Positions 9,969 to 46,374 of a stretch of DNA of 64,000 nt are shown here, piece after piece; position 1 is the first letter of the stretch; every line of letters starts with the position of its first letter. Under the pieces are notes generated by a model. That model saw only the letters and a program-made list of their open reading frames with translations. It was not told the origin of the DNA and made no database searches. The translations under genes and the position numbers were made by a program. The DNA is from Nitrosopumilus sp. (GTDB lineage: Archaea > Thermoproteota > Nitrososphaeria > Nitrososphaerales > Nitrosopumilaceae), in contig OZ250186.1 in assembly GCA_965238275.1 (NCBI GenBank), forward strand, positions 864,001 through 928,000. Reading direction: 5' to 3'.

Positions 9969-11068
9969 GCGGGTCTGTAGTTGAGTTTTGTCTCAGACAC
10001 GTCATGGGACAGTATGAACCTGCTGGCGCCGTCCATGACGGCAAAAAGCCACCGCGCCTGCGCGCGAACCTTGAAATGTATCTCGTCACAGTGCCACTTG
10101 TAATGCGCAGTCCACCTGTATATCGTGCTTGAATGCACGGTTGTTCCGTGACGGCAAAAAGCCCGTGCGCGGCTGCAGCCGCCTTGAATATTCACCCATC
10201 AGCGCCGAATAATGCGCAGTCCACCTGTATATCGTGCTTGAATGCACGGTTGTTCCGTCCTGTGCCATCACTGCCTGCACCGCAGCGCAGGACAGCCCGT
10301 ACGCTGCCTCCCTGAGTGCCCGGGATATCGCCTCTGGGCCGGCATGGCGCTTCTTGAAGCCCGGCCGTCCGGAGAATGTCCGGCCGCACGGCTTACACCG
10401 GTACCGCCGGATCGGCCCGTACGCGTTGTGTCGGTGCCCGTTGCGTGCAAACACAGTCGACTTGCAATGGTGGCATGCAGTCTGAGGCATGCTAATGACA
10501 ATTGTATTTTGGTTCCTGCACCGGTCCCACATCCGGCCAAGCAACACGTCCACTGCCCGCACGTGCTTGCACAGGCCGTCACAATTGACGTAATGCTGGC
10601 ACGCGCATACAAACCCGGCAGAGCCAAGAATCACCAGATACCACAGTCCTGGAATAGACTGCGATGCCACATTCCATCGTCTGAGACTTGTCATCCTCAC
10701 CTGCTTTGGGTCGTTGCTGATCACCTGTCCCTGCCTTGCCGCCGTTTTGGCGCGTTTTGCCCTGTTCATAAATAAACCAATTGGTATTATTACATAGATC
10801 TTTCTACCAGTCTTAAATAACAGGCAGCTAAAAAAAATTCATGACCCAGTGGGCCAAAGACGCCAAGGAATTTACCGTTTCTGTGATCAAAAACGAGAAG
10901 CGTCTGACAAACTACAGCTACATACCAAAACCGATACTTGAAATGCTTGGCAATCCCGACAAACTAAAGTTTGTCATTTCCGGCGATGACATAATGGTGC
11001 GCAGACCAGACGAGTGAATCTGGAGAAGATCCTGATTTTGTGTCACCAACCGATGATGCAGGAGAACC
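9969..11068 (-). mobile_element. Truncated copy of IS6-like element (SWIM/Zn-ribbon/DDE transposase fragment plus small divergent ORF; one TIR)
   Basis: Near-identical, in reverse orientation, to 20517-20936 plus 23676-24297. One TIR ends at 11068 (...GATGATGCAGGAGAACC). The transposase is frameshifted by a 58-nt insertion and is truncated. Confidence 0.85.
10841..11017 (+). CDS. 58-aa AbrB/SpoVT-like small protein carried by IS6-like element
   Basis: Manual translation MTQWAKDAKEFTVSVIKNEKRLTNYSYIPKPILEMLGNPDKLKFVISGDDIMVRRPDE; the IPKPI..LG pattern is AbrB-like; TATA-like TTAAATA upstream; second copy at 20568-20744. Confidence 0.6.
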   Translation: MTQWAKDAKEFTVSVIKNEKRLTNYSYIPKPILEMLGNPDKLKFVISGDDIMVRRPDE

Positions 11069-11082
11069 GATGTTAAACAAGG

Positions 11083-19511: not shown

Positions 19512-20567
19512 GCAACATCACACCATGCTGCCGGGTATTTAACATGTGAGCGGGAAATCCCACACCATTTATGGGTGGGATGAAAGCGAACAATGCAACT
19601 GCCACGCATGTTATATTCTATAGTGAAAAGCGAAAGTTCGTGCAATTTTTTGGGCACCTTTTTAAGAAAATAAATCCCAACTACAGGTATGATTGTCAGT
19701 AAAATCATCAAGATAACACAATCTCGGGAACTGTCACGCAAGATCGTGAAATGCTCCCGGGAAACAGACATCATTTACGACATGACAATCATGATGAAAC
19801 TTGCACATCCCGGGATCACACAGTTTGACATCAACAACCTGATAACAGGATGGCGCAGGGAATTCAACCTGGCCAGCAGCGTCCGCATGCATGAGGCCGC
19901 CTCAAAACAGGCTTTCCAGGCGGCAGTCAAATTCCGCAAGGCAAACCGGCTCAAGCACAACAAGCGCATCTGGCGCAAGAAACAGATCAAGCTGGGGAAA
20001 AAGAAGACGTACAAGCACAATCGGTGGACCGAGCCGTCCAGCCTGATGAGGCGCGGCAGGAAAACAACCAGGCTGCGCTCGCTGAATTCACGCGGAAAGC
20101 CAAAACTGCGAGACAGTGGAGCCGTATTTCTGCCCGGACTCGGGGAAGCAAGGCCACGCACGAAGGTTCCAGAAGGCAGGCTCGTGTCATTCCAGATGAT
20201 TGACACCACGGGCAAGGTCACGCGCAAGACCAAGGATGGTGATCGCGAATTCAAACTGCATTTGCAGATAGAAGTCCCAGACCCCGAACCCGCGACAGGC
20301 GGTGGTGGCGGCGGATGCAAGGCAGGGCTAGATCTTGGAGTCAGGCACCTTGCGGCAGTCGCAGACGAGCATGGGAACGAAAGGCTGTACGACGTCCCCG
20401 GAGGCTGCAAGAGGCATGACGGCGACAGAATTGATCAGCTGAAATCACTTAGATCAAGATGCCAGGCAGGCTCCAGAAGATGGAAAGAGATCGGCCGCAA
20501 GGTAACGCATGAATTGGGTTCTCCTGCATCATCGGTTGGTGACACAAAATCAGGATCTTCTCCAGAT

Positions 20568-20744
20568 TCACTCGTCTGGTCTGCGCACCATTATGTCATC
20601 GCCGGAAATGACAAACTTTAGTTTGTCGGGATTGCCAAGCATTTCAAGTATCGGTTTTGGTATGTAGCTGTAGTTTGTCAGACGCTTCTCGTTTTTGATC
20701 ACAGAAACGGTAAATTCCTTGGCGTCTTTGGCCCACTGGGTCAT
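20568..20744 (-). CDS. 58-aa AbrB-like small protein (second copy)
   Basis: Reverse-complement copy of 10841-11017. Confidence 0.6.
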   Translation of the reverse strand: MTQWAKDAKEFTVSVIKNEKRLTNYSYIPKPILEMLGNPDKLKFVISGDDIMVRRPDE

Positions 20745-20936
20745 GAATTTTTTTTAGCTGCCTGTTATTTAAGACTGGTAGAAAGATCTATGTAATAATA
20801 CCAATTGGTTTATTTATGAACAGGGCAAAACGCGCCAAAACGGCGGCAAGGCAGGGACAGGTGATCAGCAACGACCCAAAGCAGGTGAGGATGACAAGTC
20901 TCAGACGATGGAATGTGGCATCGCAGTCTATTCCAG

Positions 20937-23672
20937 AGACATAATCCGTAATTAGAAATTGTGCATATTTTCCTATATTGTGTAGGTTTTTTGACTCCTA
21001 CCCGATTGCTTCCCGGACTAGGAGAACCCTGAGGTTGGCAAATCCGCAAACGATGTCATTGATGGTGTCATATTTTTTCAGGCGGTTTCGGTAGACACCG
21101 CCCATTATGCGAAACCGTTTGACCCTGCGGATGGCGTGCTCCACATACACCCGTACCTTTGAGTGTTTTTTGTTGAATTCCTTCTGCTCGGGGGACAATT
21201 CTGCACCTTTTTGCTTCTTGTACGGCACTACGGCATCCCGGTCAGGAAACTCCTTGTTGATCCCCTGGTATCCGCCATCCAGGATCTCTCTGACCTTGAT
21301 CCTTTTCTTGTCCTTGCTCCCGTCCTTGCGTGGAAGGTTGTCAGGGAATGTCGGGTGTTTCTTTTTGAATACTGCAAAGTCGTGGATCCTGCCCGGGGAA
21401 TGCCGGGTCTTGTGAAGGATGAGGCCGTCCGTGGCCGATGTGTACTGGACCTTGGACGTGTGCCTGTGTGCCTTGCCCGAGTAGTGGGACCGTTCCATGT
21501 CCTTGCGCCCGGGACGTTGTATCTGCTGCTCGGAGGCATCAATCAGGGCAGTCAGGCCCGGAATGATCTCCTCAAGATCGTCAAGCGTCTTGGTGGCCTT
21601 GATGCTGGCGTAGATCTTTGACGGAAGCGGAACGCACTGCCGGATCGACGGCTCCAGTGCCCCCATGCTGCGGGACACGCTAGCCTGGCCCACCTGAAAC
21701 ACCATGGCAAGAAGATCCTGTGTGGCGTATGTCCTGTAATAAAACAGGACCAGAAGAAACCTGTTTTTGTAACTGTGTAGTTTTTTGATCAAATGGTGAA
21801 TTCCATGCCTACAAAAAACTATGTATTTTTTTTAACATGGAACCAGATTCTCGCGCAGGACCGTGCAAAAATCATCTCCCCTTGCCTTGCATGTCTGCTT
21901 GATGCTCATCAGCACGGCAATCGCGTCTGCGCCCTTCTTTGACCTGCTCCCGTTGCTGTTCTTGCGAAGAATGACGTACGGCCTGATGGCCCGCTCTGCC
22001 CGGTTGTTGTGGTATTCGACATCGTCTGTCTCCAGAAACGCAAACAGGTGATCCCTTTCCCGCACCAGCCTCTTGCGCATCCTGTTGCAGTGCTTGCAGT
22101 CGCGGTCCTTCTCGAGCCTGCCTATCAGGAACGCGATGCGACGGTCCAGCCTCTTCTTTGTGGCAAGCGCGTCTGCTCCTCCCGGAATGGCACCGTCGAC
22201 GTGCGAGTCCCACAGTATGCTGCGCAGCGTCCTTGCGTGCCGCCGGTAGTCCTGGCCGGGATTTTTGTATCTCAGGGTGTCCTTGATGTCCCGGGCGTAA
22301 TGCAGGTGGCACTTTTGGTGCATGGTTCCTATGACGTTCCACGCTCCCCACGAGTCAGACGTCACGCATCCCGAATAGTCCTTGCCAAGCATCTTTTTTG
22401 GAACCTTCGAGTTCCTGCGGCGGTGTACCTCGTAGATTACGGCGTACTTTGTTACCACCGCCCACAGCCAATAGTTGGTGCCGTTGACGCGCCAGACAGA
22501 CTCGTCCCCATTTATCGCAGGCGAGCGCCTCACCTCCTCCTTGATCTTCTCGTACAGCGGCCCAAGCTCCCGTGCCATCCTGCACACCATGCGGTTTATG
22601 GCAGATTCGGTGATCCTTGCAGAGTACGTTAGCAGGACAATCTGGCATATCCTGAGGTCTGACATGCCGTGCAGCCTGAGGATGACCATCATTATCATAA
22701 AGTTGATCCCGTACCTGGAGTTTGGCAGTGCCAGCGGGGTCCTGCCGGACACGGTCTTCTTGCAGTTCCTGCAGCGCCTTCTCTTTACTGTCACCTTGAT
22801 GTGCTCTAGTTCCAACTGGCAGCCTCCCTTACGACCTTTGTGTACGTGGATACGCACTCGGAGAGGTCGGAGCTGCCGCAGTTGTCGCACGTGTGGGGAT
22901 CTGCCGTCTCCTCCGCGTCTATTCTTTCAGGACGCCTGAGGCCGGTACGTCTGTGGTCGCTTGACTTGCCCTTGGCCTTTGTGCGGCGTCTGGCACCGCC
23001 GGTCTTTTTGTCAGGTTTTGCGCCGATGCTCCTTGCAACGGCAGCCGATATGACGCCCTTTGCTTCCTGCAACTCTGCCGTGAGGTGGCTGTCGGAAGTA
23101 AAGATCAGCGAGATTGGCCAGCTGACGGTCTGGCCAGCTGCCCTGCCATCATCTCCACTTTTTCCTCCAGTTCTGCAATCCTTGACTCGGAATTATCATC
23201 AGGCATAATGCAAACCCTGATGATCTAAAAATTAATAAATCAAGGATTAAAAATAGTTTCAAAAAAAACTACACAGACGTTTGTAGGCATGGAATTCAAC
23301 GTTTGATCAAAAAAACACAGTTACCTGTTTTTCAGATCCAGTTTCCACCTGCGTCCGGCACCAATGCCGCGCACCCTGCTTCTTTTGGAGAGTCGCTTTT
23401 GCTCTGCCCTGGGGTATTTTTTTGCCAGCCGCCCTGCCACCAAATTAAATTCGGAGACTGTCAGTCCAGTGCACCGGATGAACAGTTTGGGCTTTTTTGC
23501 TAATTTGTCGTATAATGACATGCTTTGACATGGGCAATCAGAATAAAACACGGCTGACGTATAGTTTTGATCATCGGGTAAGTTCGAATTGACATGCAAT
23601 TCCGTGCAATCAACCGGATTTGTCCTGCAATGCGTCCAATCGTGTGGTTATACCCAATTACGGATTATGTCT
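20937..23672 (-). mobile_element. IS5-family (ISL2-like, DDE_Tnp_4) element, transposase split by IS66-like insertion
   Basis: 17-bp TIR AGACATAATCCGTAATT and 3-bp TSD CAG. ORF 23521-23325 plus 21760-20998 is 960 nt in frame, with IDASEQ, YSGK, DGGYQG and RVYVEHAIRRVK. Confidence 0.88.
21769..23324 (-). mobile_element. IS66-family (single-ORF) element, frameshifted transposase
   Basis: GTAACTGTGT..TGATCAAA..GAATTCCATGCCTACAAA TIRs, 8-bp TSD CTGTTTTT; GDESVW, SDSW, QKCHLHYAR, NNRAERAIR; ORF broken near 22820 and 23110. Confidence 0.9.
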
Positions 23673-24730
23673 CAGGACTGTGGTATCTGGTGATTCTTGG
23701 CTCTGCCGGGTTTGTATGCGCGTGCCAGCATTACGTCAATTGTGACGGCCTGTGCAAGCACGTGCGGGCAGTGGACGTGTTGCTTGGCCGGATGTGGGAC
23801 CGGTGCAGGAACCAAAATACAATTGTCATTAGCATGCCTCAGACTGCATGCCACCATTGCAAGTCGACTGTGTTTGCACGCAACGGGCACCGACACAACG
23901 CGTACGGGCCGATCCGGCGGTACCGGTGTAAGCCGCGCGGCCGGACATTCTCCGGACGGCCGGGCTTCAAGAAGCGCCATGCCGGCCCAGAGGCGATATC
24001 CCGGGCACTCAGGGAGGCAGCGTACGGGCTGTCCTGCGCTGCGGTGCAGGCAGTGATGGCACAGGACGGAACAACCGTGCATTCAAGCACGATATACAGG
24101 TGGACTGCGCATTATTCGGCGCTGATGGGTGAATATTCAAGGCGGCTGCAGCCGCGCACGGGCTACAAGTGGCACTGTGACGAGATACATTTCAAGGTTC
24201 GCGCGCAGGCGCGGTGGCTTTTTGCCGTCATGGACGGCGCCAGCAGGTTCATACTGTCCCATGACGTGTCTGAGACAAAACTCAACTACAGACCCGCCCC
24301 CCTGTTTGCAGCCGCAAGGAATCTGGCCGGAACCACCCCGTGGGTGCTGGTAACAGACGGCCTGCAGGCGTTTTGTCCTGCCGCCCGCAGGGCGTTTTGG
24401 AGACGCAACGGCTTCAGGCTGATCCACGTCCGGGAGATTCACCTGAAGAACCGCTTCAGTCATAACAACAAGCACGAGAGGCTTAACGGTGAATTCAAGG
24501 ATCGCATCAAGACCGCCCGCGAGTTCGGGACAGAAAGTCCCGCGCTTGTGCGGCTGATGATCGTCCACCACAACTTTTTCCGCCCCCATGGCGGCATTGG
24601 CAAAATTACACCCGCAGAGGCCGCAGGGATCGTCATATCTGGAACGGACAAGCAGATCACCCTCATCAGTAATGCATAGTAGGGGCCAGAGCAATCCGAT
24701 CACCGTGGGTCATTAATTCCACAAATTACC

Positions 24731-25933
24731 ATGTCTCATGGGATAATCTACCCGTCATTACTACAGTCAGATTGCCGCCGAGATACATTCAGATCACAGG
24801 CACACGCCCACGTGCTTATGATGATTGCAGCCGACGGAAAGCAAGGCGTTGCCGAATCAGTCCATCACGCAAAGGCAAGTTCAGTACCGGATTCCAGGCA
24901 AAAGAAGCTCGAGGTTGGATCCCGGTTCATGCCGAACGTGAGCAAAAAGAAGCTGGTGCGGGCGTGCGCAAAAGAGAAGAACAAGCTGGCCAAGATCAGG
25001 CTGCTTGCGTGCATCCTGAGAAAACGGGGACGCAGCATCCGGAATATATGCAAGGAACTGGTCATGCCGTATTCCACAGTGCGCGACTGGCTGGTGCGGA
25101 TGCAGGGACGGGGGTTGAAAGCCCGGTTCAACCGAACGCGCGGGGGCAGGAAAAGCAAGATGCCCAAATCATTTTCCAGGACGGTTAGGGTGTGGCTTGG
25201 CAACAAGCCGAAAAAGTACGGATTCGAGTCAGGCTCCTGGCAGCTCAACTTGATACTGGAGATGATCCGGCGGACGTTTGGACTGGATTGCTGCAAGGCG
25301 CGCACGTTGCGAAGGATGCTCAAAAAGATCGGGTTCTCTTACAGAAAAACCCGGCCCGTTCCGCCCAAATCCGCCTCCAAAAGCGAGCAAGAGGAGTTCA
25401 AGGCAAGGGCCGGCAGGAAGGCGGGGGATCTGGCCAATGAAGGGTATGCCGTGTTCGTCGAAGACGAGGCTGCAGTCGGCATGTCACAGGAACCGGGCTA
25501 CGGGTGGAGGCCCACGGGAGGACGCGACGAGATCCAGACTGGGTTCTCGAAAAAGGCCGTCAGCCTGCTTGGCATCATGGGCACAGACACCCTCTACGTC
25601 CGCATGGCGGATTCTGCAAACTCGGAGACGTTCAAGGAATTCCTCGAGGATGTCCGCAAGAGCCATCCGAAATTCTACATGGTCCTGGACAACGCGTCGT
25701 ACCACAAGTCGCACAAGGTCAGAGAATACGTGGCCGGCACTGGCGGTGACGTCGAGCTGGAATTTCTCCCGCCCCGCACGCCGCAGCTGAACCAGATCGA
25801 AAACGTCTGGAGGGATCTCAAGAGACGGCTGGCAGGCCGGTACTTTGAGTCACCGGAGGAGCTAAAGGCGGCAATAGCGATAATCCTTGAAAAAGAGATG
25901 GGCAACCGACTTGTGGGTTATCTGGTAAATTAG
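24731..25933 (+). CDS. IS630-family transposase (inside IS6-like element)
   Basis: HTH, FVEDEA, MVLDNASYHKS, FLPPRTPQLNQIENVW; start likely downstream (~24929); element ends not clearly resolved. Confidence 0.88.
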   Translation: MSHGIIYPSLLQSDCRRDTFRSQAHAHVLMMIAADGKQGVAESVHHAKASSVPDSRQKKLEVGSRFMPNVSKKKLVRACAKEKNKLAKIRLLACILRKRGRSIRNICKELVMPYSTVRDWLVRMQGRGLKARFNRTRGGRKSKMPKSFSRTVRVWLGNKPKKYGFESGSWQLNLILEMIRRTFGLDCCKARTLRRMLKKIGFSYRKTRPVPPKSASKSEQEEFKARAGRKAGDLANEGYAVFVEDEAAVGMSQEPGYGWRPTGGRDEIQTGFSKKAVSLLGIMGTDTLYVRMADSANSETFKEFLEDVRKSHPKFYMVLDNASYHKSHKVREYVAGTGGDVELEFLPPRTPQLNQIENVWRDLKRRLAGRYFESPEELKAAIAIILEKEMGNRLVGYLVN

Positions 25934-26102
25934 CCACATTAGTGTGAAAATTTATTCTGGCGTGTGGAATAATACGAATCTTTGTTTGCCTGTCGCCTGA
26001 TTTCTGTGCAAGCCGTGGTTTCAACCACGCCAGGTTTGACGAGATGCAGGATTGTATGAATAATTTAGCCAAAGGTGAGCGGATTGTTCTGGCCAATACT
26101 AT

Positions 26103-26172
26103 GCAGCAGCTGCTGCAGCAGCAGCGTAGTCGCAGCAGCAGCAGCAGCAACGGCAGCTGTAGCAACGGCAGC
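26103..26172. repeat. Imperfect (CAG/GCA)n trinucleotide tract
   Basis: gcagcagctgctgcagcagcagcgtagtcgcagcagcagcagcagcaacggcagc. Confidence 0.7.
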
Positions 26173-27108
26173 GACACACGTAGCCCAGACTGGCCTTGGC
26201 GTGATGGATGTCCCATCAATGCATGTCATGGCAATGACTGGGATTATCCATCACAACTGGCAGATTCTCCCTAGAGGAATTATGATTTAATGGGGAATGG
26301 CATAACGGTGCGTAAAACAGCAAGTAAATCTGGAGAAGATCCTGAATTTGTGCCACCAACCGATGATGCAGGAGAACCCATGAATTGAAAAAGATATCAA
26401 ACAGGCAAAAACACAACGAGATCGACATTGCCAGGCGGATAACAAAAGGACTGTCCGTATTGTTCTTGGAAGATCTGGATTTGACCAAGATGAGGCGATC
26501 CTGCGGGGCGGCTTCAAAGACGGGGTTGAACCGCGAGATGGCCTATTCCAGAATGGGCGAGTTCAGGATCCAGCTTGAATGGCAGATGAAAAAGAAAGGC
26601 GGAATTTCAAGACGCGTGGAACACGCACATACAAGCCAGAGATGCGCTGCCTGCGGGGTAGTGGACAAAAAGTCCAGGAACGGCGAATCATTTGTCTGCA
26701 CCTCATGCGGATGGTGCCACCATGCCGACAAGAACGCGGCAAAAAACATTCTGGATAATAACTGTCCCCATACGGAGGAGACTGGCGGCCAAGCCCACGG
26801 GAATCGTGGAGGCACCATTGCAGGTGTCGAGGTCGTCACAAGGCGCGAGGATCACGGATCGGATAGTTCTGGAATGAACAATTCGACAGGTCGGCTTGGA
26901 TCCGACAACGACGACAATATTGGAAGGTCTGACAGAGCGCCGGAAAGAGCATCAGGACACGCTACAGAGAGATCTGTTTGCACGAATTTTCGCTCGCCGC
27001 TATACGCACACGTATAACAAACATGTGTGGCTTTGTCTTGACCCACAACCATGGTCAAGCAGGCTCGTTGAACGAGGAAGCCAACGGCTTTAGTCGTTGG
27101 TAGTTCAC

Positions 27109-35291: not shown

Positions 35292-35303
35292 GAGCCTGTT
35301 GGC

Positions 35304-37475
35304 ATGAAAGGAATGCATCATCTAGGGTTTCTACTCTTGTTTGTATCCGCAGCTGGAATGCTTTCTGGTGCCCATGCAGTTGACAACGACTTTGATGATG
35401 ACGGCGTTCCCAACTCCGTTGACCTGTGTCCCAATCTCCAGGAGGACTATGATCCACAGTATGCCGAGAACATAGACGGCTGTCCTGCAGACTTTGTCCC
35501 ATGGTATGATGCTGACTTTGACGGGATACAGGATCACATTGATGACTGTCCCACTACAAAGGAGACTTACAACCGGGTTGCAGACGATGACGGGTGTCCT
35601 GATCTGATCGGCGTTACAGACGTCCCGATTCCGGACTCTGACGGCGACGGCTATCCGGACTATCTGGACCTGTGCCCAACATTGCCTGAGACCTTCAACG
35701 GTATTGATGACAGGGACGGATGCCCTGACGACGACACGTCCCTGGATGACACAGACTCTGACGGACTCTCTGACCTCGCAGACGGCTGTCCTACCGAGCC
35801 TGAGACTTACAACAGGTTCATGGATGCTGACGGCTGTCCTGATACAGTAGCAGCAGCAGATCCCCTTACAAGTTATGCATTCCCGGATTCTGACGGCGAC
35901 GGGATGGACGACAGGTGGGACTCCTGTGTAAACGAGCCTGAAAACTACAACGGCTATCTTGACTGGGACGGCTGCCCTGACTCCCCTGGTGCCGAATCCT
36001 TTGCGATACCTGATGCCGACTCTGACAGTATTCCTGATTACCTTGATGCCTGTCCTCTGGAGCGGGAGAACTTTAACAGGTTCCAAGATGAGGACGGCTG
36101 CCCCGACAAGCTGGTATTTACAGTTGTCGGCGATGCTGATGGTGACGGCATTCTGGATCCTGACGACTCCTGTCCGTTCCAGCCGGAGATATACAACAGG
36201 ATTGCAGACGAGGACGGCTGTCCTGATGCAGTTGCATACGACATGACTGCCAGCGACTCTGACGGCGACGGATTCATAGATCAGATCGACAGGTGTCCTT
36301 TGGACCCTGAGACCTTCAACGGCATTGATGATACTGACGGCTGCCCTGACGACGTATCGGATCATGCCGATACTGACAATGATGGAATTTCTGACGGGAC
36401 AGACGCATGTCCAATGGAACCTGAGGTATACAACAGGTTCCAGGATGCAGACGGATGTCCTGATTCAGTGGATGTCGTACTGTCCGTGTTTACCTTCCCG
36501 GATTCTGACGGCGACGGGATAGATGACAGGTGGGATTCCTGTGTAAACGAGCCTGAAAACTACAACGACTATCTTGACTGGGACGGCTGCCCTGACGTTC
36601 CAGGAACTGCATACATGATCACAACGGATGCTGACTCTGACGGGGTGCCGGATCTTATAGACGAGTGTCCTGATTTGGCCGAACGATACAACGGATTCCA
36701 AGATGATGACGGCTGTCCTGACAGCGTAGCGTACGTGACTGTAATCGACTCTGACAGCGACGGAATATATGATGATGTGGACCAATGCCCAGGCATCCCA
36801 GAGAACTACAACCGGTTCATGGATGAGGACGGCTGCCCCGACCACATAACCGACCACCGGGCTGCTGCTGACTCTGACGGCGACGGACTGATTGACACGC
36901 TGGACCTGTGCCCCACCCAGCCTGAGACATACAATGGCCTGGAAGACTGGGACGGCTGTCCTGACAGTACGCGGTCATTCTCTGATGTTGATCGGGACGG
37001 AATTTCTGATGATCTAGATGCCTGTCCTCTTATGCCCGAGACTTGGAACAGGTTCCAGGATGCAGACGGATGTCCTGATTCAGTGGATGTCGTACTGTCC
37101 GTGTTTACCTTCCCTGATTCTGACGGCGACGGGATGGACGACAGGTGGGATTCCTGTGTAAACGAGCCTGAAAACTACAACGACTATCTTGACTGGGACG
37201 GCTGCCCTGACGTTCCTGGTGCAGAATCAGTTGCAGTCACAGTACTTGATTCAGACTCTGACGGATACCCTGACAGTATTGACGGCTGTCCTACAAGTCC
37301 TGAGACCTGGAACAAGTACCTGGATTACGACGGCTGCCCTGACGCGGCTCCAGAACAGCAGAGGTTCGTCCATGACACTGATCTTGATGGCATCATAAAT
37401 GACGCGGACATATGCCCAATGGAGCGGGAGGATTATGATGGCTATATGGATGAAGACGGCTGTTATGACCCATAG
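35304..37475 (+). CDS. Secreted thrombospondin type-3 repeat protein 2
   Basis: Signal peptide; same repeat. Confidence 0.9.
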   Translation: MKGMHHLGFLLLFVSAAGMLSGAHAVDNDFDDDGVPNSVDLCPNLQEDYDPQYAENIDGCPADFVPWYDADFDGIQDHIDDCPTTKETYNRVADDDGCPDLIGVTDVPIPDSDGDGYPDYLDLCPTLPETFNGIDDRDGCPDDDTSLDDTDSDGLSDLADGCPTEPETYNRFMDADGCPDTVAAADPLTSYAFPDSDGDGMDDRWDSCVNEPENYNGYLDWDGCPDSPGAESFAIPDADSDSIPDYLDACPLERENFNRFQDEDGCPDKLVFTVVGDADGDGILDPDDSCPFQPEIYNRIADEDGCPDAVAYDMTASDSDGDGFIDQIDRCPLDPETFNGIDDTDGCPDDVSDHADTDNDGISDGTDACPMEPEVYNRFQDADGCPDSVDVVLSVFTFPDSDGDGIDDRWDSCVNEPENYNDYLDWDGCPDVPGTAYMITTDADSDGVPDLIDECPDLAERYNGFQDDDGCPDSVAYVTVIDSDSDGIYDDVDQCPGIPENYNRFMDEDGCPDHITDHRAAADSDGDGLIDTLDLCPTQPETYNGLEDWDGCPDSTRSFSDVDRDGISDDLDACPLMPETWNRFQDADGCPDSVDVVLSVFTFPDSDGDGMDDRWDSCVNEPENYNDYLDWDGCPDVPGAESVAVTVLDSDSDGYPDSIDGCPTSPETWNKYLDYDGCPDAAPEQQRFVHDTDLDGIINDADICPMEREDYDGYMDEDGCYDP

Positions 37476-37763
37476 TGCATCATCCCATCACACTGTCCAA
37501 TGATTCATTTTCCTGCATCAGTCTCTATGGTATGGCATACAGCCTCCTACAGAATCGCTCATGAATCCGGGAACCTCTTTTGCCGGTATGGCAGTCCCGT
37601 GTGTATGGCTCTTAACTTCATGGAATGCAGATATCCTGACAGCTACAAGCCCCTCCATTAGGTATGTGATGTGCCGCTTACCGTGATATTTTTGGCACGA
37701 TCACAAAATGGACTCCCATTAGTGAAACTTAATAGATACTAAAATCTATCTGAGATTGCAAAG

Positions 37764-39947
37764 ATGAACCGATATTGTATTATGGGATTCATGATCCTGC
37801 TTGTGTTGACTATAGGAATGCCTCTTGATGTGCATGCCGCAGATGCAGATTCTGACGGTGACGGCGTACCAAACCCCGTAGACCTGTGCCCAAATCTCCA
37901 GGAGGATTATGATCCGCAGTATGGTGAGAATATTGACGGATGTCCTGCTGACTTTGTCCCATGGTATGATGCTGACTTTGACGGGATACAGGATCACATT
38001 GATGACTGTCCCACTACAAAGGAGAATTACAACCGGGTTGCAGACGAGGACGGCTGTCCTGATCTGATTGGTATTGCCGGCATCTCGATTCCGGACTCTG
38101 ACGGTGACGGCTATCCAGATTATCGGGATCTGTGCCCCTCGCTGCCTGAGACATTCAACGGCCTTGATGATACTGACGGCTGTCCTGACGATGATGTAAA
38201 CCTGACTGATACTGACTCTGACGGACTTTCTGATAATTCAGACTCGTGTCCCACAGAACCTGAGACATACAACCGATTCCAGGATGACGACGGCTGTCCT
38301 GATACAGTAGCAGCAGCAGATCCCCTTGCAAGTTATGCATTCCCTGACGCTGATGCCGACGGGGTAGACGACCGGCGGGATGCATGCCTGAACGAGCCTG
38401 AAAACTACAACGACTATCTTGACTGGGACGGCTGCCACGATGTTCCGGGAATCTCCACCCCATTGCCTGCCGATTCTGATTCTGACCATATCTTAGACAC
38501 GGATGATGCATGCCCGCTGGAACGGGAGGTCTATAACGGATTCCAGGATGACGACGGCTGTCCCGATGCGGTTCTCCTGCATGTTGTTCGTGATCTTGAC
38601 CGTGACGGCGTCTCAGACATCTTTGACCAGTGCCCCCACCTCCCCGAGACCTACAACAGGATTGCAGACGAGGACGGCTGTCCTGACAGTGTAGTGGTGC
38701 ACCGGCTGGCGACAGACTCGGACGGGGACGGCATCATAGATCGCATGGACTATTGCCCAAACCAGCCTGAGACCTACAACGGCTTCTTGGACTCTGACGG
38801 CTGTCCTGACGAATTCAGTCCGACAGCCGACTTGGACCGTGACGGCGTCATAGACGGGCTTGACCAGTGTCCGCTGGAGCCTGAGACCTACAACCTGTTC
38901 CAGGACTCTGACGGCTGTCCTGATGCAGTAGTAGCAGCAGATCCCCTTGCAAGTTATGCATTCCCTGACGCTGATGCCGACGGGGTAGACGACCGGCGGG
39001 ATGCATGCCTGAACGAGCCTGAAAACTACAACAATTATCTGGATCACGACGGATGCCCTGATGTCTCCGGAATCTCAACCCCTCCGCCTTCCGACTCGGA
39101 CGGGGACGGCATTCCCGATGTCGATGATCTATGTCCAACAATAAGAGAACGATACAACGGATTAATGGATGAGGACGGATGCCCTGATGTATTGGCATAC
39201 AGTTCCACAGGTGATACTGATCGTGACGGGATAAACAACGATGTTGACCAGTGTCCAAACTCCAAAGAGACCTACAACAGGATTGCAGACGAGGACGGAT
39301 GTCCTGATGCCGTTGTAGCCGGTTTGGCGGTGGCCGATTCAGACGGGGACGGCATCATAGATCGCATGGACTATTGCCCAACCCAGCCTGAGACCTACAA
39401 CGGCTTCTTGGACTCTGACGGCTGTCCTGACGAATTCAGTCCGACAGCCGACTCGGACCGTGACGGCGTCCTAGACGGGCTTGACCAGTGTCCGCTGGAG
39501 CCTGAGACCTACAACCTGTTCCTGGACTCTGACGGCTGTCCCGATACGGTTGTAATCGATCCTGGTACCGGTTATGCATTCCCTGACACTGACGCTGACG
39601 GGATAGACGACCGGTGGGATGCATGTCCGAACATTCCTGAAAACTATAACGACTATCTTGATCACGACGGATGTCCTGACGTTCCCGGCGCAGAATCCAC
39701 CCCACCTACAAGCTTGGACTCTGATAATGACGGATATCATGACAGCGTAGATGCATGCCCGACAAACCCTGAAACTTGGAACAAGTACAACGATCACGAC
39801 GGATGTCCTGACACGGCTCCAGAACAGCAGAGGTTTGTCCATGATACTGATCTTGACGGCATCATAAACTCCGAGGATCTGTGTCCTCTGGATCCGGAGA
39901 ACTATAACGGCTTCGAGGATGACGACGGCTGTCCGGATTCTTCATGA
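37764..39947 (+). CDS. Secreted thrombospondin type-3 repeat protein 3
   Basis: Signal peptide; same repeat. Confidence 0.9.
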   Translation: MNRYCIMGFMILLVLTIGMPLDVHAADADSDGDGVPNPVDLCPNLQEDYDPQYGENIDGCPADFVPWYDADFDGIQDHIDDCPTTKENYNRVADEDGCPDLIGIAGISIPDSDGDGYPDYRDLCPSLPETFNGLDDTDGCPDDDVNLTDTDSDGLSDNSDSCPTEPETYNRFQDDDGCPDTVAAADPLASYAFPDADADGVDDRRDACLNEPENYNDYLDWDGCHDVPGISTPLPADSDSDHILDTDDACPLEREVYNGFQDDDGCPDAVLLHVVRDLDRDGVSDIFDQCPHLPETYNRIADEDGCPDSVVVHRLATDSDGDGIIDRMDYCPNQPETYNGFLDSDGCPDEFSPTADLDRDGVIDGLDQCPLEPETYNLFQDSDGCPDAVVAADPLASYAFPDADADGVDDRRDACLNEPENYNNYLDHDGCPDVSGISTPPPSDSDGDGIPDVDDLCPTIRERYNGLMDEDGCPDVLAYSSTGDTDRDGINNDVDQCPNSKETYNRIADEDGCPDAVVAGLAVADSDGDGIIDRMDYCPTQPETYNGFLDSDGCPDEFSPTADSDRDGVLDGLDQCPLEPETYNLFLDSDGCPDTVVIDPGTGYAFPDTDADGIDDRWDACPNIPENYNDYLDHDGCPDVPGAESTPPTSLDSDNDGYHDSVDACPTNPETWNKYNDHDGCPDTAPEQQRFVHDTDLDGIINSEDLCPLDPENYNGFEDDDGCPDSS

Positions 39948-39999
39948 GAGCGTCACACTACCGGACATGATAGATATACCCGAACCATAAAACCATACA

Positions 40000-40965
40000 A
40001 TGCTTCCAAAATTTTCAAGCAGGGCATTCCTGGCCCCGATGGCAGGCGTGTCTGATCCGGCACTCAGGCTGCAGTGTAAGATGATGGGAGCCGGCCTTGT
40101 TGTGACTGAGTTTACCAACATTCACAGCATAGTGGCCAAGGCAGAGCAGCTCAGGGCACAGCTGAAGACGATTCAGGAGTTTATCCGGTTCTCCGAGGAG
40201 GAGAGGCCTCTCTCAGTCCAGCTGTTCGGATCCGATCTTGCAGTGCTGGAGAAGGCTGCCAAGATAGTAGAGCCATTCTTTGACATGATAGACTACAACA
40301 TGGGATGTCCTGCGCCGCACATTACAAGGCAGATGGCAGGCGGTGCCCTGCTGCAGCATGCGGATGTGACCCGGAAGATTCTTGCCACCCTTGTCGGTGC
40401 AGTAAGAAAGCCTGTCACCATCAAGATCCGTTCTGGAACCACCGATGCTGACCGGTACCTGTTCCGGGAGATTGCAGGTATCGCCGAAGATGAGGGGATT
40501 CAGATGATTACGCTTCATCCAAGAACGGTCAGTCAGGGCTACTCTGGAAGTGCAGACTGGAATATGATAAGGGATCTCAAGGAGACTGCCGGGGTTCCAA
40601 TCGTCGGTAATGGCGACATTGCGACCCCTGAGGACGCCCGGGCGATGCTTGATGATACCGGTTGCGACTATGTGATGATCGGCCGCGGCGCCATGGGAAA
40701 CCCATTCCTGTTTGAACAGATCAACGACTATCTGAAGACAGGCTCATACCACGAGTACCTGCTTGAAGACAGACTGGATGCATTCTTTGAGTATCTGCAC
40801 ATGACTGCCGGATATGGAATCCGATTTGCAAACATCAAGGGCCAGGCAATGCGGTTTACGCGGGGGATGCAGAGGGGCTCCAGACTGCGCCCCCGGATTA
40901 CCCTCTCTGAGGATATAGACCAGCTTGAAAGAGTCATGCATGATGCATATACATCCTGCAACTGA
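40000..40965 (+). CDS. dus: tRNA-dihydrouridine synthase (DusB-like)
   Basis: LAPMAGVSD, QLFGSD, NMGCPA, KIRSG, LHPRT, GNGDI, MIGRGAMGNP. Confidence 0.92.
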   Translation: MLPKFSSRAFLAPMAGVSDPALRLQCKMMGAGLVVTEFTNIHSIVAKAEQLRAQLKTIQEFIRFSEEERPLSVQLFGSDLAVLEKAAKIVEPFFDMIDYNMGCPAPHITRQMAGGALLQHADVTRKILATLVGAVRKPVTIKIRSGTTDADRYLFREIAGIAEDEGIQMITLHPRTVSQGYSGSADWNMIRDLKETAGVPIVGNGDIATPEDARAMLDDTGCDYVMIGRGAMGNPFLFEQINDYLKTGSYHEYLLEDRLDAFFEYLHMTAGYGIRFANIKGQAMRFTRGMQRGSRLRPRITLSEDIDQLERVMHDAYTSCN

Positions 40966-44374: not shown

Positions 44375-44689
44375 ATCCCGTCTGCGATGATCCCCGATTA
44401 AATTGTTACCTGCTCATTCTGGTATAATCTCGGGTGCGGTCCGGAGCCATTCACGCAATCCGGGCATGCTGCCATGCAACAACTGCATGGATGGCATCAT
44501 GCACTGATGGAACCGGTTCCCAGAAAGCAAAAACGACCCTTCCCCAACAACAAGACTGCCGCCGATCCCCCCTCCATGCATCAGACGTTTGCGACTGTGC
44601 CTGTGTGGTGGTGGCGTCCCATCCACTGACTCTGGTAGATTTTGGTGATCAGATCACAAATTTACGAGCCCATCCACTCGTATCTGTGC

Positions 44690-46205
44690 TATAGACAAAA
44701 ACCAAAAGTTCATGCAATTTTTTGGGCACCTTTTTAAGAAAATAAATCCCAACTACAGGTATGATTGTCAGTAAAATCATCAAGATAACACAATCTCGGG
44801 AACTGTCACGCAAGATCGTGAAATGCTCCCGGGAAACAGACATCGTTTACGACATGACGATCATGATGAAACTTGCACACCCGGGGATCACACAGTTTGA
44901 TGTCAACAACCTGATAACAGGATGGCGCAGGGAATTCAACCTGACCAGCAGCGTCCGCATGCATGAGGCCGCCTCAAAGCAGGCTTTCCAGGCGGCAGTC
45001 AAATTCCGCAAGGCAAACCGGCTCAAGCACAACAAGCGCATCTGGCGCAAGACACAGATCAAGCTGGGGAAAAAGAAAACGTGCAAGCACAATCGGTGGA
45101 CCGAGCCGTCCAGCCTGATGAGGCGCGGCAGGAAAACAACCAGGCTGCGCTCGCTGAATTCACGCGCAAAGCCAAAACTGCGAGACAGTGGAGCCGTGTT
45201 TCTGCCCGGACTCGGGGAAGCAAGGCCACGCACGAAGGTTCCAGAAGGCAGGCTCGTGTCATTCCAGATGATTGACACCACAGGCAAGGTCACGCGTAAG
45301 ACCAAGGATGGTGATCGCGAATTCAAACTGCATTTGCAGATAGAAGTCCCAGACCCCGAACCCGCGACAGGCGGTGGCGGCGGCGGATGCAAGGCAGGGC
45401 TGGATCTTGGAGTCAGGCACCTTGCGGCAGTCGCAGACGAGCATGGGAACGAAAAACTGCACAATGTCCCCGGAGGCTGCAAGAGGCATGACGGCGACAG
45501 GATTGATCAGCTGAAATCACTTAGATCAAGATGCCATGCAGGTTCCAGAAGATGGAAAGAGATCGGCCGCAAGGTAACGCATGAATTGAAAAAGACATCA
45601 AACAGGCAAAAACACAACGAGGCCGACATTGCCAGGCGGATAACAAAAGGACTGTCCGTATTGTTCTTGGAAGATCTGGATTTGACCAAGATGAGGCGAT
45701 CCTGCGGGGCGGCTTCAAAGACGGGGTTGAACCGCGAGATGGCCTATTCCAGAATGGGCGAGTTCAGGATCCAGCTTGAATGGCAGATGAAAAAGAAAGG
45801 CGGAATTTCAAGACGCGTGGAACACGCACATACAAGCCAGAGATGCGCTGCCTGCGGGGTAGTGGACAAGAAATCCAGGAACGGCGAATCATTTGTCTGC
45901 GTCTCATGCGGATGGTGCCACCATGCCGACAAGAACGCGGCAAAAAACATTTTGGATAATGACTGTCTCCATACGGAGGAGACTGGCGGCCAAGCCCACG
46001 GGAATCGTGGAGGCACCATTGCAGGTGTCGAGGTCGTCACAAGGCGCGAGGATCACGGATCGGATAGTTCTGGAATGAACAATTCGACAGGTCGGCTTGG
46101 ATCCGGCAACGACGACAATATTGGAAGGTCTGACAGAGTGCCGGAAAGAGCATCAGGACATGCTACAGAGAGATCTGTTTGCACAAACTTTTGCTCGCCG
46201 CTATA
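44690..46205 (+). mobile_element. TIR-bounded TnpB element, copy 2 (uninterrupted)
   Basis: Ends TATAGACAAAAACCAAAAGTTCATGCAA / TTGCACAAACTTTTGCTCGCCGCTATA; both flanks C; no IS605 hairpins, no transposase. Confidence 0.8.
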
Positions 46206-46374
46206 CTCGTCAATAATCTGTCAGACACTACCATACTCATCAATGGCTGCCTTTGGCAGTTTGGCCTCAAAGAAGCCCAGCTGTCCTGCGTACGGAACGG
46301 GAGCCATGAATGTTCTGGGGTTTCTGAGCATGAACCCAAAGGCCCTTGCAGGATGGCCGTCTCCTGCATGGTGA
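44761..46374 (+). CDS. tnpB: TnpB RNA-guided nuclease (RuvC D-E-D intact); ORF reads through element end
   Basis: AGLDLGVRHL (RuvC-I), FLEDLDL (RuvC-II), TSQRCAACG/CVSCG Zn finger, HADKNAAKNI (RuvC-III). Confidence 0.92.
   Translation: MIVSKIIKITQSRELSRKIVKCSRETDIVYDMTIMMKLAHPGITQFDVNNLITGWRREFNLTSSVRMHEAASKQAFQAAVKFRKANRLKHNKRIWRKTQIKLGKKKTCKHNRWTEPSSLMRRGRKTTRLRSLNSRAKPKLRDSGAVFLPGLGEARPRTKVPEGRLVSFQMIDTTGKVTRKTKDGDREFKLHLQIEVPDPEPATGGGGGGCKAGLDLGVRHLAAVADEHGNEKLHNVPGGCKRHDGDRIDQLKSLRSRCHAGSRRWKEIGRKVTHELKKTSNRQKHNEADIARRITKGLSVLFLEDLDLTKMRRSCGAASKTGLNREMAYSRMGEFRIQLEWQMKKKGGISRRVEHAHTSQRCAACGVVDKKSRNGESFVCVSCGWCHHADKNAAKNILDNDCLHTEETGGQAHGNRGGTIAGVEVVTRREDHGSDSSGMNNSTGRLGSGNDDNIGRSDRVPERASGHATERSVCTNFCSPLYSSIICQTLPYSSMAAFGSLASKKPSCPAYGTGAMNVLGFLSMNPKALAGWPSPAW

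What the first reader, a model, noticed from the sequence alone, without database searches (positions are those of the whole stretch)
44690..46205. TnpB in an element with terminal inverted repeats and TA duplication (IS630/mariner-like ends), present twice
Seen: two near-identical ~1.5-kb units (44690-46205; 19619-27004, interrupted) whose shared sequence stops at C|TATAG... and ...CTATA|C. The ends are ~27-bp imperfect inverted repeats in register (copy 1: TATAG-5nt-AGCGAAAGTTCGTGCAA vs reverse complement TATAG-5nt-AGCGAAAATTCGTGCAA). One position co-varies: G at both ends of copy 1, A at both ends of copy 2. Both reconstructed empty sites read CTAC. The only gene is a TnpB with intact RuvC D/E/D and Zn finger. 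Known: prokaryotic TnpB usually rides IS200/IS605 (hairpin ends, no TSD) or IS607, whereas TIRs with TA duplication typify IS630/Tc1-mariner, which carry some eukaryotic Fanzors. Inference: a non-autonomous DDE-mobilised TnpB element in an archaeon, Fanzor-like in architecture. Alternative: a recombinase-mobilised element with a CTATA core.
Basis: partly seen in the sequence, partly recalled or inferred. Interest (0 to 1): 0.9.

Follow-up and report, generated by a model that had tools for sequence, protein, structure and literature searches.

The report
TnpB riding an IS630-type transposon
A small mobile element in an ammonia-oxidising archaeon carries only the RNA-guided nuclease TnpB and its guide RNA, yet has the inverted-repeat ends and TA duplication of IS630/mariner transposons, so it is most likely moved by transposases encoded elsewhere in the genome, an arrangement already described in 2023.

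Summary
The 1.5-kb unit occurs about 22 times in the 2.2-Mb genome.

**Ends.** All copies end N|C-TA-TAG…CTA-TA|N, with 27-nt inverted repeats.

**TA duplication.** Five of five alignable empty sites hold exactly C plus 2 nt. Two read CTA, and two lie in a conserved reading frame. A CTATA core is therefore excluded.

The right-hand C of "CTAC" and the "co-varying" base are chance.

**Who moves it.** The genome has 0 Y1 and 0 serine-recombinase hits but 32 IS630 DDE_3 hits. TnpB-less IS630 elements share the repeats, at best 23/27 against a chance mean of 10.5. At least two encode intact HTH+DDE_3 transposases.

**Guide RNA.** The last ~240 nt fold into a conserved ωRNA-like structure: 23 of 55 pairs are compensatory, and 97% pair against 32-46% when partners are slid.

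**Left-flank C.** The base 5' of the left TA is C in 37/37 insertions. It is C in 17/42 right ends, 17/32 TnpB-less ends and 17% of TA sites genome-wide. I read this as a TAM filter, which is inference.

**Novelty.** IS630-linked and solo TnpBs with symmetric ends are in print (PMC10691335). This is a new member of a known kind.

The parts
44687..44691 (+). Predicted TAM of copy 1: T-G-C followed by the left TA (C at 44689; TA 44690-44691 is the left copy of the target duplication)
   Evidence: C at -1 in 37/37 left ends of two genomes versus 17/42 right ends and 17/32 TnpB-less ends. T at -3 in 17/21 left ends of this genome. That it acts as a TAM is inference.
44690..44717 (+). Left terminal inverted repeat including the duplicated TA (this copy is aberrant: TATAGACAAAAACCAAAAGTTCATGCAA, one base longer than the family consensus TATAGTGAAAAGCGAAAGTTCGTGCAA)
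44761..46205 (+). tnpB reading frame. The catalytic core ends near residue 400 (about 45960). The frame has no stop inside the element and in this copy runs on to 46374.
45939..46203 (+). ωRNA-like scaffold (11 helices, 55 pairs) overlapping the 3' end of the tnpB frame and the right inverted repeat
   Evidence: 97.3% of cells paired versus 32-46% with slid partners; 23 pairs with compensatory change versus 2-5
46179..46205 (-). Right terminal inverted repeat including the duplicated TA (46204-46205)
46206..46225 (+). Predicted guide template (flank read through from the right end). The length is assumed by analogy with TnpB/Fanzor.
   Evidence: Inference only. Right flanks are unrelated between copies.
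19616..20516 (+). Copy 2, left part: flank T-T-C, TA (19619-19620), left repeat, and the 5' 276 codons of tnpB
20517..26378 (.). Foreign 5.86-kb insertion that splits copy 2 (about 55-bp inverted repeats; 9-bp duplication CATGAATTG at 20508-20516 and 26379-26387); carries four transposase ORFs
26379..27004 (+). Copy 2, right part: 3' part of tnpB, ωRNA region, right repeat, TA (27003-27004)

Best explanation
The unit is a non-autonomous member of the IS630 (Tc1/mariner-type) transposon family whose only cargo is a TnpB nuclease gene and its ωRNA.

**Movement.** It is cut and pasted into TA dinucleotides, which are duplicated. The enzyme would be an IS630 DDE transposase supplied in trans by TnpB-less IS630 elements of the same genome that carry closely similar inverted repeats.

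**Guide RNA.** Transcription through the 3' end yields an RNA whose scaffold overlaps the end of tnpB and the right repeat. Its 3' tail is copied from the flanking DNA.

**TnpB's role.** By analogy with TnpB and Fanzor, TnpB-ωRNA would cut the unoccupied or rejoined site, read as (T)NC-TA followed by the flank. Recombination with an occupied copy would then restore the element.

**Insertion filter.** Only insertions whose left flank supplies the motif C (+TA) are retained, which would explain why every left end has a C.

**Shown:** copies, ends, TA duplication, shared repeats, presence and absence of transposase types, conserved RNA structure, left-flank bias.

**Inferred:** which transposase acts, that the RNA is made and guides cleavage, and that the C is a TAM.
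For: - **Copy number.** 34 matches and about 22 near-full copies at unique sites, 78-98.9% alike.
- **Uniform ends.** C|TATAG…CTATA|N.
- **Empty sites.**
  - The G000 site orthologous to the G017 element at 1102061 reads AAAC-TA-CGTCC exactly.
  - The site for G017 1659514 reads GGC-TA-GG.
  - The G017 ortholog of G000 copy 426719-428238 has CCA in a K+ channel gene. Rebuilding with CTA keeps the frame …LTTIGYGD.
  - Paralogs of two further sites have CTG (in frame, Leu) and CAA.
  - That makes 5 of 5 alignable sites with 3 nt.
- **A TnpB-less relative.** The IS630 element at G000 1873253-1874348 sits in a (GTA)n run whose phase is kept by a single TA.
- **Shared repeats.** IS630-A type ends match 17-23 of 27 positions. 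The best is the intact element at 1873253 (23/27, equal to left versus right end of the TnpB element itself). The chance mean is 10.5. The same sharing, plus 150-bp MITEs, is seen in G017.
- **Transposase census.** DDE_3: 32 hits over cut-off. Y1_Tnp: 0. Resolvase: 0. The genome is one contig, 99.92% complete. ORFs of 354 and 337 aa have HTH + DDE_3.
- **RNA structure.**
- **Left-flank bias.** C at -1 is 37/37 at the left end versus 17/42 at the right (Fisher 1.6e-9), 17/32 at TnpB-less ends (1e-6), and 0.17 genome-wide. A 38th left end in another species' record, L146, also has T-T-C-TA.
- **Catalytic residues.**
- **Literature precedent.** PMC10691335 and PMC13565253 (passages read).
Against: - No transposase lies inside the element, and none of the resident IS630 elements has identical repeats (best 23/27). 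The trans partner is therefore not identified.
- No two of the 13 copies compared are more than 98.9% alike. I found no insertion polymorphism or excision joint in four public runs laid on the window copy, so current activity is not shown.
- Three of the five empty sites differ from CTA by one base (CCA, CTG, CAA) in homologs that are 76-92% alike. They prove the spacing, not the TA itself.
- T at -3 is also enriched at right ends (13/24). That position may reflect transposase preference rather than a TAM.
- RNA evidence is one metatranscriptome contig, which cannot prove transcription.
- Nuclease activity, TAM and guide use are untested.
Confidence: 0.85

Rival explanations
1. Same IS630-type non-autonomous element, but the invariant left C is not a TnpB TAM. 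It would reflect an intrinsic asymmetric target preference of the mobilising transposase, for example because the left and right repeats differ in their 5-nt spacer.
For: IS630-A type ends without TnpB are also enriched for C at -1 (17/32 versus 0.17 background). The classical IS630 target CTAG is recalled from the literature, not read here. T at -3 is enriched at both ends in G000 (17/21 and 13/24).
Against: In complete TnpB-less elements the C shows no consistent side relative to the transposase gene. The bias is 37/37 only at the end upstream of tnpB, and it holds in three TnpB subfamilies (45-100% aa identity) whose repeats differ. In Fanzor the 5' TSD is part of the TAM (PMC13565253, passage read).
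Confidence: 0.2
2. An IS607-like element moved by a serine recombinase that exchanges strands at a TA core. The apparent 2-bp duplication would be the core present at both junctions.
For: A 2-bp repeat at both ends and precise empty sites are also what a serine recombinase would leave. The abutted ends would form the palindrome CTATATAG (read directly from the sequence).
Against: 0 Resolvase-domain hits in the complete genome, while the same search rings in 12 of 14 control genomes. The ends are shared with elements that encode DDE_3 transposases. A palindromic core gives no directionality (general knowledge).
Confidence: 0.03
3. An IS200/IS605 (IS1341-type) solo TnpB element moved by a Y1 TnpA, inserting 3' of a CTA or CTATA target without duplication.
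For: Most solo TnpBs belong here (passage of PMC10691335 read). Left-only target conservation is typical of IS605.
Against: 0 Y1_Tnp hits. There are true 27-nt inverted repeats in register rather than different subterminal hairpins. The terminal TA is absent from empty sites at one end, so it is duplicated.
Confidence: 0.02
4. The copies are relics: the element was spread by a transposase now lost from the genome, and the TnpB genes are decaying or serve another role.
For: No two of the 13 copies compared exceed 98.9% identity. Several copies are broken by frameshifts or insertions. No polymorphism was seen in the runs.
Against: At least 11 of 17 complete G000 copies keep a full frame of 479 aa or more. 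The catalytic residues are invariant across subfamilies. The RNA structure is kept by compensatory changes. Intact IS630 transposases are present.
Confidence: 0.15

Closest known systems
IS630-associated TnpB ('DDE-6' branch) and solo TnpBs between DDE-type ends (Altae-Tran et al. 2023, PNAS, PMC10691335; passages read, supplements not seen)
   Same: TnpB inside an element with symmetric inverted-repeat ends of the IS630 family. The tnpB 3' end lies within 250 bp of the transposon end. Solo forms are proposed to be mobilised in trans.
   Different: - Here no transposase or separate HTH gene lies inside the element.
- The partner candidates are separate TnpB-less IS630 copies.
- The host is an archaeon of the Nitrosopumilus group, whereas the paper's text stresses giant viruses.
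- I could not check whether this family is in their DDE-6 branch, because the supplements are closed.
Fanzor1 in Tc1/mariner transposons of eukaryotes (as summarised in PMC13565253 and PMC10711439; passages read)
   Same: TIRs and TA duplication. The guide RNA scaffold runs through the right repeat. The 5' copy of the duplication is expected to be part of the TAM. The nuclease is cargo of a DDE cut-and-paste element.
   Different: - Prokaryotic host.
- The protein is of TnpB size, with a canonical D/E/D arrangement aligned to ISDra2.
- No chain named Fanzor appears among 33 PDB matches at E up to 1.
- Fanzors are said to descend from TnpBs with a derived active site (PMC10711439 introduction), so this is probably an independent capture.
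IS200/IS605 TnpB (ISDra2 type) and IS607 TnpB
   Same: Same protein family. An ωRNA overlaps the 3' end of the gene. The presumed homing role is shared.
   Different: The ends are true inverted repeats with a TA duplication. No Y1 or serine recombinase is present in the genome.
IS630-derived MITEs
   Same: A non-autonomous element sharing repeats and the TA target with IS630. Such MITEs of about 150 bp are present in G017.
   Different: This one carries a 1.4-kb functional-looking cargo, TnpB plus ωRNA.

Membership tests
IS630 family (as a non-autonomous derivative) | Terminal inverted repeats | tested here: met
   27-nt repeats, 23/27 between the ends, in all complete copies
IS630 family (as a non-autonomous derivative) | Insertion at TA with duplication of TA | tested here: met
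   5 of 5 alignable empty sites hold C + 2 nt; 2 read CTA exactly; 2 are in a conserved reading frame
IS630 family (as a non-autonomous derivative) | DDE_3 transposase encoded in the element | tested here: not met
   The only ORF is tnpB. No IS630 transposase hit lies beside a full-length copy of this family. The only hit within 3 kb is 2.4 kb from the right-end fragment at 193573-194028 and belongs to a separate IS630-B element. Hence non-autonomous.
IS630 family (as a non-autonomous derivative) | Ends related to those of autonomous IS630 elements in the same host | tested here: met
   17-23 of 27 identities with IS630-A type ends versus a chance mean of 10.5. Intact HTH+DDE_3 ORFs are present. 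Actual mobilisation was not tested.
TnpB (OMEGA nuclease) | RuvC D/E/D and zinc-finger cysteines | tested here: met
   D215, E304, D390 and C362/365/380/383 are invariant and aligned to ISDra2 TnpB. Pfam PF01385 and PF07282 both match.
TnpB (OMEGA nuclease) | Structured ωRNA at the 3' end reaching the transposon end | tested here: met
   55 pairs, 23 with compensatory change, controls passed. No Rfam family matches. The transcript itself is not shown.
TnpB (OMEGA nuclease) | TAM next to the left end; RNA-guided cleavage | not testable with these tools
   Only the flank bias, C at -1 in 37/37. Needs a TAM-depletion or cleavage assay.
IS200/IS605 | Y1 (HUH) TnpA available; hairpin ends; no duplication | tested here: not met
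   0 PF01797 hits. The ends are inverted repeats and TA is duplicated.
IS607 | Serine recombinase TnpA | tested here: not met
   0 PF00239 hits in the genome; the control rings in 12 of 14 genomes
Fanzor | Eukaryotic or giant-virus host; descent from TnpBs with a derived active site | tested here: not met
   Archaeal genome (record title of L146; PEFG-type C-terminal signal in flanking genes). Canonical E position. No chain named Fanzor among the PDB matches.
DDE-6 branch of Altae-Tran 2023 | Placement in that branch of the published TnpB tree | not testable with these tools
   The tree and sequence lists are in supplements, which are closed. 0 relatives in viral contigs.

The most novel reading that the evidence does not exclude
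The invariant C 5' of the left TA is a natural 'TAM footprint'. On this reading, an IS630 cut-and-paste element carrying TnpB persists only at TA sites that also offer TnpB's motif in the correct orientation. It would be 38 of 38 independent insertions in three genomes and three TnpB subfamilies. TnpB-guided restoration would then be needed for the long-term survival of a DDE transposon in an archaeon. It would also give a prokaryotic, independently evolved counterpart of the Fanzor1/mariner partnership, with a predicted TAM ((T)NC-TA), ωRNA and candidate transposase all in hand for testing.
Probability: 0.45. Interest if true: 0.7.

Novelty: new member of a known kind. Interest (0 to 1): 0.45.

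Why it matters
TnpB's proposed job, cutting the emptied site so that the transposon is copied back, was worked out for IS605/IS607 elements, which excise without a scar. How the same nuclease helps a cut-and-paste DDE transposon is discussed mostly for eukaryotic Fanzors.

This archaeal family offers a compact natural data set:
- dozens of independent insertions
- exact empty sites
- a covariation-supported guide RNA
- intact candidate transposases
- a strong, orientation-specific flank bias that predicts the TAM

It makes the question testable in a prokaryote. It also documents that, in a genome with no Y1 or serine TnpA at all, TnpB families live entirely on DDE-type elements.

Tried and rejected
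**CTATA core or 5-nt target.** Rejected by the 3-nt empty sites.

**In-genome empty sites.** Only 2 of 18 copies had paralogous flanks that bridge the junction.

**Orthologous empty sites in G017.** Of 18 G000 copies, one (c428) aligned cleanly across the junction. c710 hit a paralog, c1560 aligned only with gaps (uninformative), and the rest did not reach the junction. In the other direction, 3 of 16 G017 elements had both flanks reaching the junction in G000. Two were clean, and one (855282) was not alignable.

**Public runs.**
- 24 runs were listed and four were laid.
- Contigs break at the repeat.
- There was no joint across the element. The single 60-nt skip, 44657 to 44718, sat in one contig with a side of 30, and I do not interpret it.
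- In three DNA runs the left flank departs from the window from about 44661 on.
- The 1,404-nt contig of RNA run X17 over 44698-46004 cannot prove transcription.

**Rfam.** 0 matches at E up to 1.

**Wider relatives.**
- Genome contigs with one protein gave 1 locus.
- Viral contigs gave 0.
- Metagenome contigs gave 0.
- 150 other genomes of the order gave 0 at E 1e-40.
- 3 of 81 genus genomes were positive at 1e-60.
- The protein database gave 21 clusters at 45% identity or more, then a drop to 31% or less.

**Composite TnpB + IS630 element.** None found within 3 kb for this family in G000 or G017.

**Literature.**
- 'TnpB' + 'IS630' found 16 papers.
- 'TnpB' + 'DDE transposase' + 'terminal inverted repeat' + 'TAM' found 5 papers.
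- 'TnpB' + 'Nitrosopumil' found 0 papers.
- I read passages only of PMC10691335, PMC13565253, PMC10711439 and bioRxiv 10.1101/2023.03.14.532601. The last uses IS630 only as a control.
- The supplements of PMC10691335 (Additional Files 10 and 11, Tables S1 and S2) may list this very family. They are closed.

Full report
**1. What is in the sequence**

- Window 44690-46205 and 19619-27004 are two copies of one 1.5-kb unit.
- The second copy is split at 20517-26378 by a 5.86-kb insertion. That insertion has its own repeats of about 55 bp and a 9-bp duplication, CATGAATTG.
- The window is G000:C1:864001-928000, in a single-contig genome of 2,216,668 bp with 52.7% G+C.
- A search of that genome with the unit gives 34 matches. 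Nineteen single-piece matches cover 1.38 kb or more and three copies are split, so about 22 are near-full. There are also fragments and solo ends.
- Thirteen complete copies are 78-98.9% alike.
- The only gene is a TnpB: Pfam OrfB_IS605 and Cas12f1-like_TNB.
- D215, E304, D390 and four zinc-finger cysteines are invariant in three subfamilies. They align to the D/E/D columns of ISDra2 TnpB.

**2. Boundaries**

- Lining up all ends gives N|C-TATAG-TGAAA-AGCGAAAGTTCGTGCAA … TTGCACGAACTTTCGCT-CGCCG-CTATA|N.
- The two ends are inverted repeats, 23/27 identical and in register.
- The C before TATAG is present in 21 of 21 left ends. The base after CTATA varies.
- The 'co-varying' base is not general.
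- Three copies have the outer left repeat replaced by an unrelated shared sequence. The window's copy 1 has an aberrant left repeat.

**3. Target duplication**

If TA is duplicated, an empty site should read flank-C-TA-flank (3 nt). With a CTATA core it would hold 5 nt.

- G000 copy 426719-428238 interrupts a K+ channel gene. The G017 ortholog reads …GCTGAC-CAC-CATAGGATACGGCGAC…. The reconstruction with CTA keeps the frame and the LTTIGYGD motif.
- G000 copy 708708-710217 interrupts a gene with a PEFG-type C-terminal signal. Two paralogs and a G017 homolog have CTG (Leu), in frame, where CTA (Leu) is reconstructed.
- Window copy 2 has two paralogous sites with CAA.
- Conversely, two G017 elements have orthologous empty sites in G000 that read AAAC-TA-CGTCC and GGC-TA-GG.
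- Thus 5 of 5 alignable sites have the 3-nt spacing and 2 show CTA itself.
- One further pair (G017 855282) could not be aligned, and c1560 was uninformative.
- A TnpB-less IS630 element at G000 1873253-1874348 lies in a (GTA)n run that stays in phase with one TA.

**4. Who moves it**

- The genome has no Y1_Tnp hit and no Resolvase hit. The same searches ring in 6 and 12 of 14 control genomes. It has 32 DDE_3 (IS630) hits over the cut-off.
- A motif scan shows that the TnpB-less IS630 elements of this genome and of the closest relative G017 begin with the same kind of repeat: TATA[C/G], 7 nt, then xAAAGTTxxTGCA.
- IS630-A type ends share 17-23 of 27 positions with the TnpB element. Chance gives a mean of 10.5 and a 95th percentile of 14.
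- The best match is the element at 1873253-1874348. Its 354-aa ORF has HTH domains and DDE_3. A second element (2123842-2124945) has a 337-aa ORF of the same make-up.
- G017 also holds 150-bp MITEs with these ends.
- No copy of this TnpB family has an IS630 transposase inside or directly beside it.
- The simplest reading is trans-mobilisation. This is inferred, not shown, and no resident element has identical repeats.

**5. The RNA**

- I aligned the last 280 nt of 14 copies from three subfamilies (G000 family; G017 families at about 55% and 45% aa identity).
- RNAalifold gives 55 pairs in 11 helices, 23 of them with compensatory changes.
- On a count, 97.3% of cells pair, against 32-46% when partners are slid by 1-3 columns. 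There are 23 pairs with double changes against 2-5, and 0 of 500 shuffles reach the observed covariation score.
- The structure spans window 45939-46203. It overlaps the C-terminal 80 codons of the frame and the right repeat.
- No Rfam family matches.
- In the G000 family the tnpB frame has no internal stop. Its last codon is the terminal TA plus the first flank base. Copies followed by A or G stop there, and the others read on. In the G017 families the stop lies 34 nt inside, so this is a family quirk.

**6. The left-flank bias**

| Site class | C at position -1 (just 5' of the TA) |
|---|---|
| Left ends, unique flanks | 37/37 (21 G000, 16 G017) |
| Right ends | 17/42 |
| IS630-A type ends without TnpB | 17/32 |
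| All TA sites genome-wide | 17% |

- The Fisher tests give 1.6e-9 (left versus right ends) and 1e-6 (left ends versus TnpB-less ends).
- A further copy in another species' record (L146) has T-T-C-TA.
- All five empty sites keep the C, so it belongs to the target, not to the element.
- T at -3 is found in 17/21 G000 left ends and 2/16 G017 left ends, but also in 13/24 G000 right ends. It is a weaker and ambiguous signal.
- In Fanzors the 5' copy of the duplication is part of the TAM and the 3' copy lies in the RNA scaffold (PMC13565253, passage read).
- By analogy I predict TAM = (T)NC-TA and a guide starting after 46205.
- I read the bias as retention of only those insertions that TnpB can restore. 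A transposase preference is the rival explanation.

**7. Distribution**

- The family was found in 3 of 81 genomes of the genus (G000 with 22 matches, G017 with 20, G212 with 1 partial).
- It was found in 0 of 150 other genomes sampled from the order.
- It was found in one further record titled as a Nitrosopumilus sp. MAG.
- It was found in 0 viral and 0 JGI metagenome contigs.
- In the protein database, 21 clusters have 45% identity or more. The next relatives are at 31% or less.
- G017 also has a distant TnpB family with different 26-28-nt repeats and 8-9-bp duplications.

**8. Comparison with what is known**

- Altae-Tran et al. 2023 (PMC10691335; passages read) describe TnpBs associated with IS630 DDE transposases plus an HTH protein ('DDE-6').
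- A 2026 review repeats this (PMC13565253).
- Hence the kind is known. This is a new, archaeal, purely non-autonomous, high-copy member.
- By sequence it is an ordinary TnpB. The best PDB matches are TnpB and Cas12f-type chains, and no chain named Fanzor appears at E up to 1.
- Its glutamate is at the canonical position. Fanzors are said to derive from TnpBs with a derived active site (PMC10711439). An independent capture by IS630 is therefore the likeliest history, by inference.

**9. Verdict**

- The novelty is modest.
- The most interesting residue is the orientation-specific C, which predicts the TAM and suggests that TnpB shapes which insertions survive.

Noticed in passing
window 20517-26378 (duplication 20508-20516 / 26379-26387); related end at window 11013-11072: A 5.86-kb insertion with inverted repeats of about 55 bp and a 9-bp duplication splits TnpB copy 2. 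It holds four different transposase ORFs: DDE_Tnp_4, IS66, rve and IS630 DDE_3. It is probably a nest of insertion sequences.
   Followed up: partly
G000:C1:950965-951040 (outside the window; locus L020): Directly after the right end of one copy lies a second, diverged 76-nt right end that again finishes with CTATA. Both are absent from the G017 ortholog. The origin is unexplained; it could be a tandem end or a recombination relic.
   Followed up: partly
G000:C1 near 828588, 2148269 and 502660 (outside the window): In three copies, two of this family and one of a 44%-identity family, the outer part of the left repeat is replaced at the same point (…AAAG|TTCGTGCAA) by a shared unrelated sequence. 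This suggests another element that targets this repeat.
   Followed up: partly
G017:C1:1144164-1145357, 1501063-1502256, 1691578-1692771 (loci L108, L126, L135): A distant TnpB family (about 29% aa identity) sits between 26-28-nt inverted repeats (GGAATTATATACGTAAGTTACATGT) with duplications of about 8-9 bp. That is a second, different DDE-type carrier of TnpB in this lineage.
   Followed up: partly
window 46203-46206 and all G000 copies: The tnpB frame of this family has no stop codon inside the element. The last codon is the duplicated TA plus the first flank base, so the protein's C-terminus depends on the insertion site.
   Followed up: yes
window 33000-40000: A long array of diverged repeats of about 114-123 nt, encoding units ending in D-D-G-C-P-D (thrombospondin type 3-like calcium-binding repeats, named from recall), in one very large gene.
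   Followed up: no
G000:C1:426719-428238 (outside the window): One TnpB copy interrupts a potassium-channel gene just upstream of the selectivity-filter motif TIGYGD. The G017 ortholog is intact.
   Followed up: partly
G000:C1:615467-615557, 643115-643205 and 1821627-1821716: Insertions of about 90 nt inside three TnpB copies, probably MITEs. The 614929-616534 and 642577-644183 copies share the same insertion, and the second has lost its outer left repeat.
   Followed up: no
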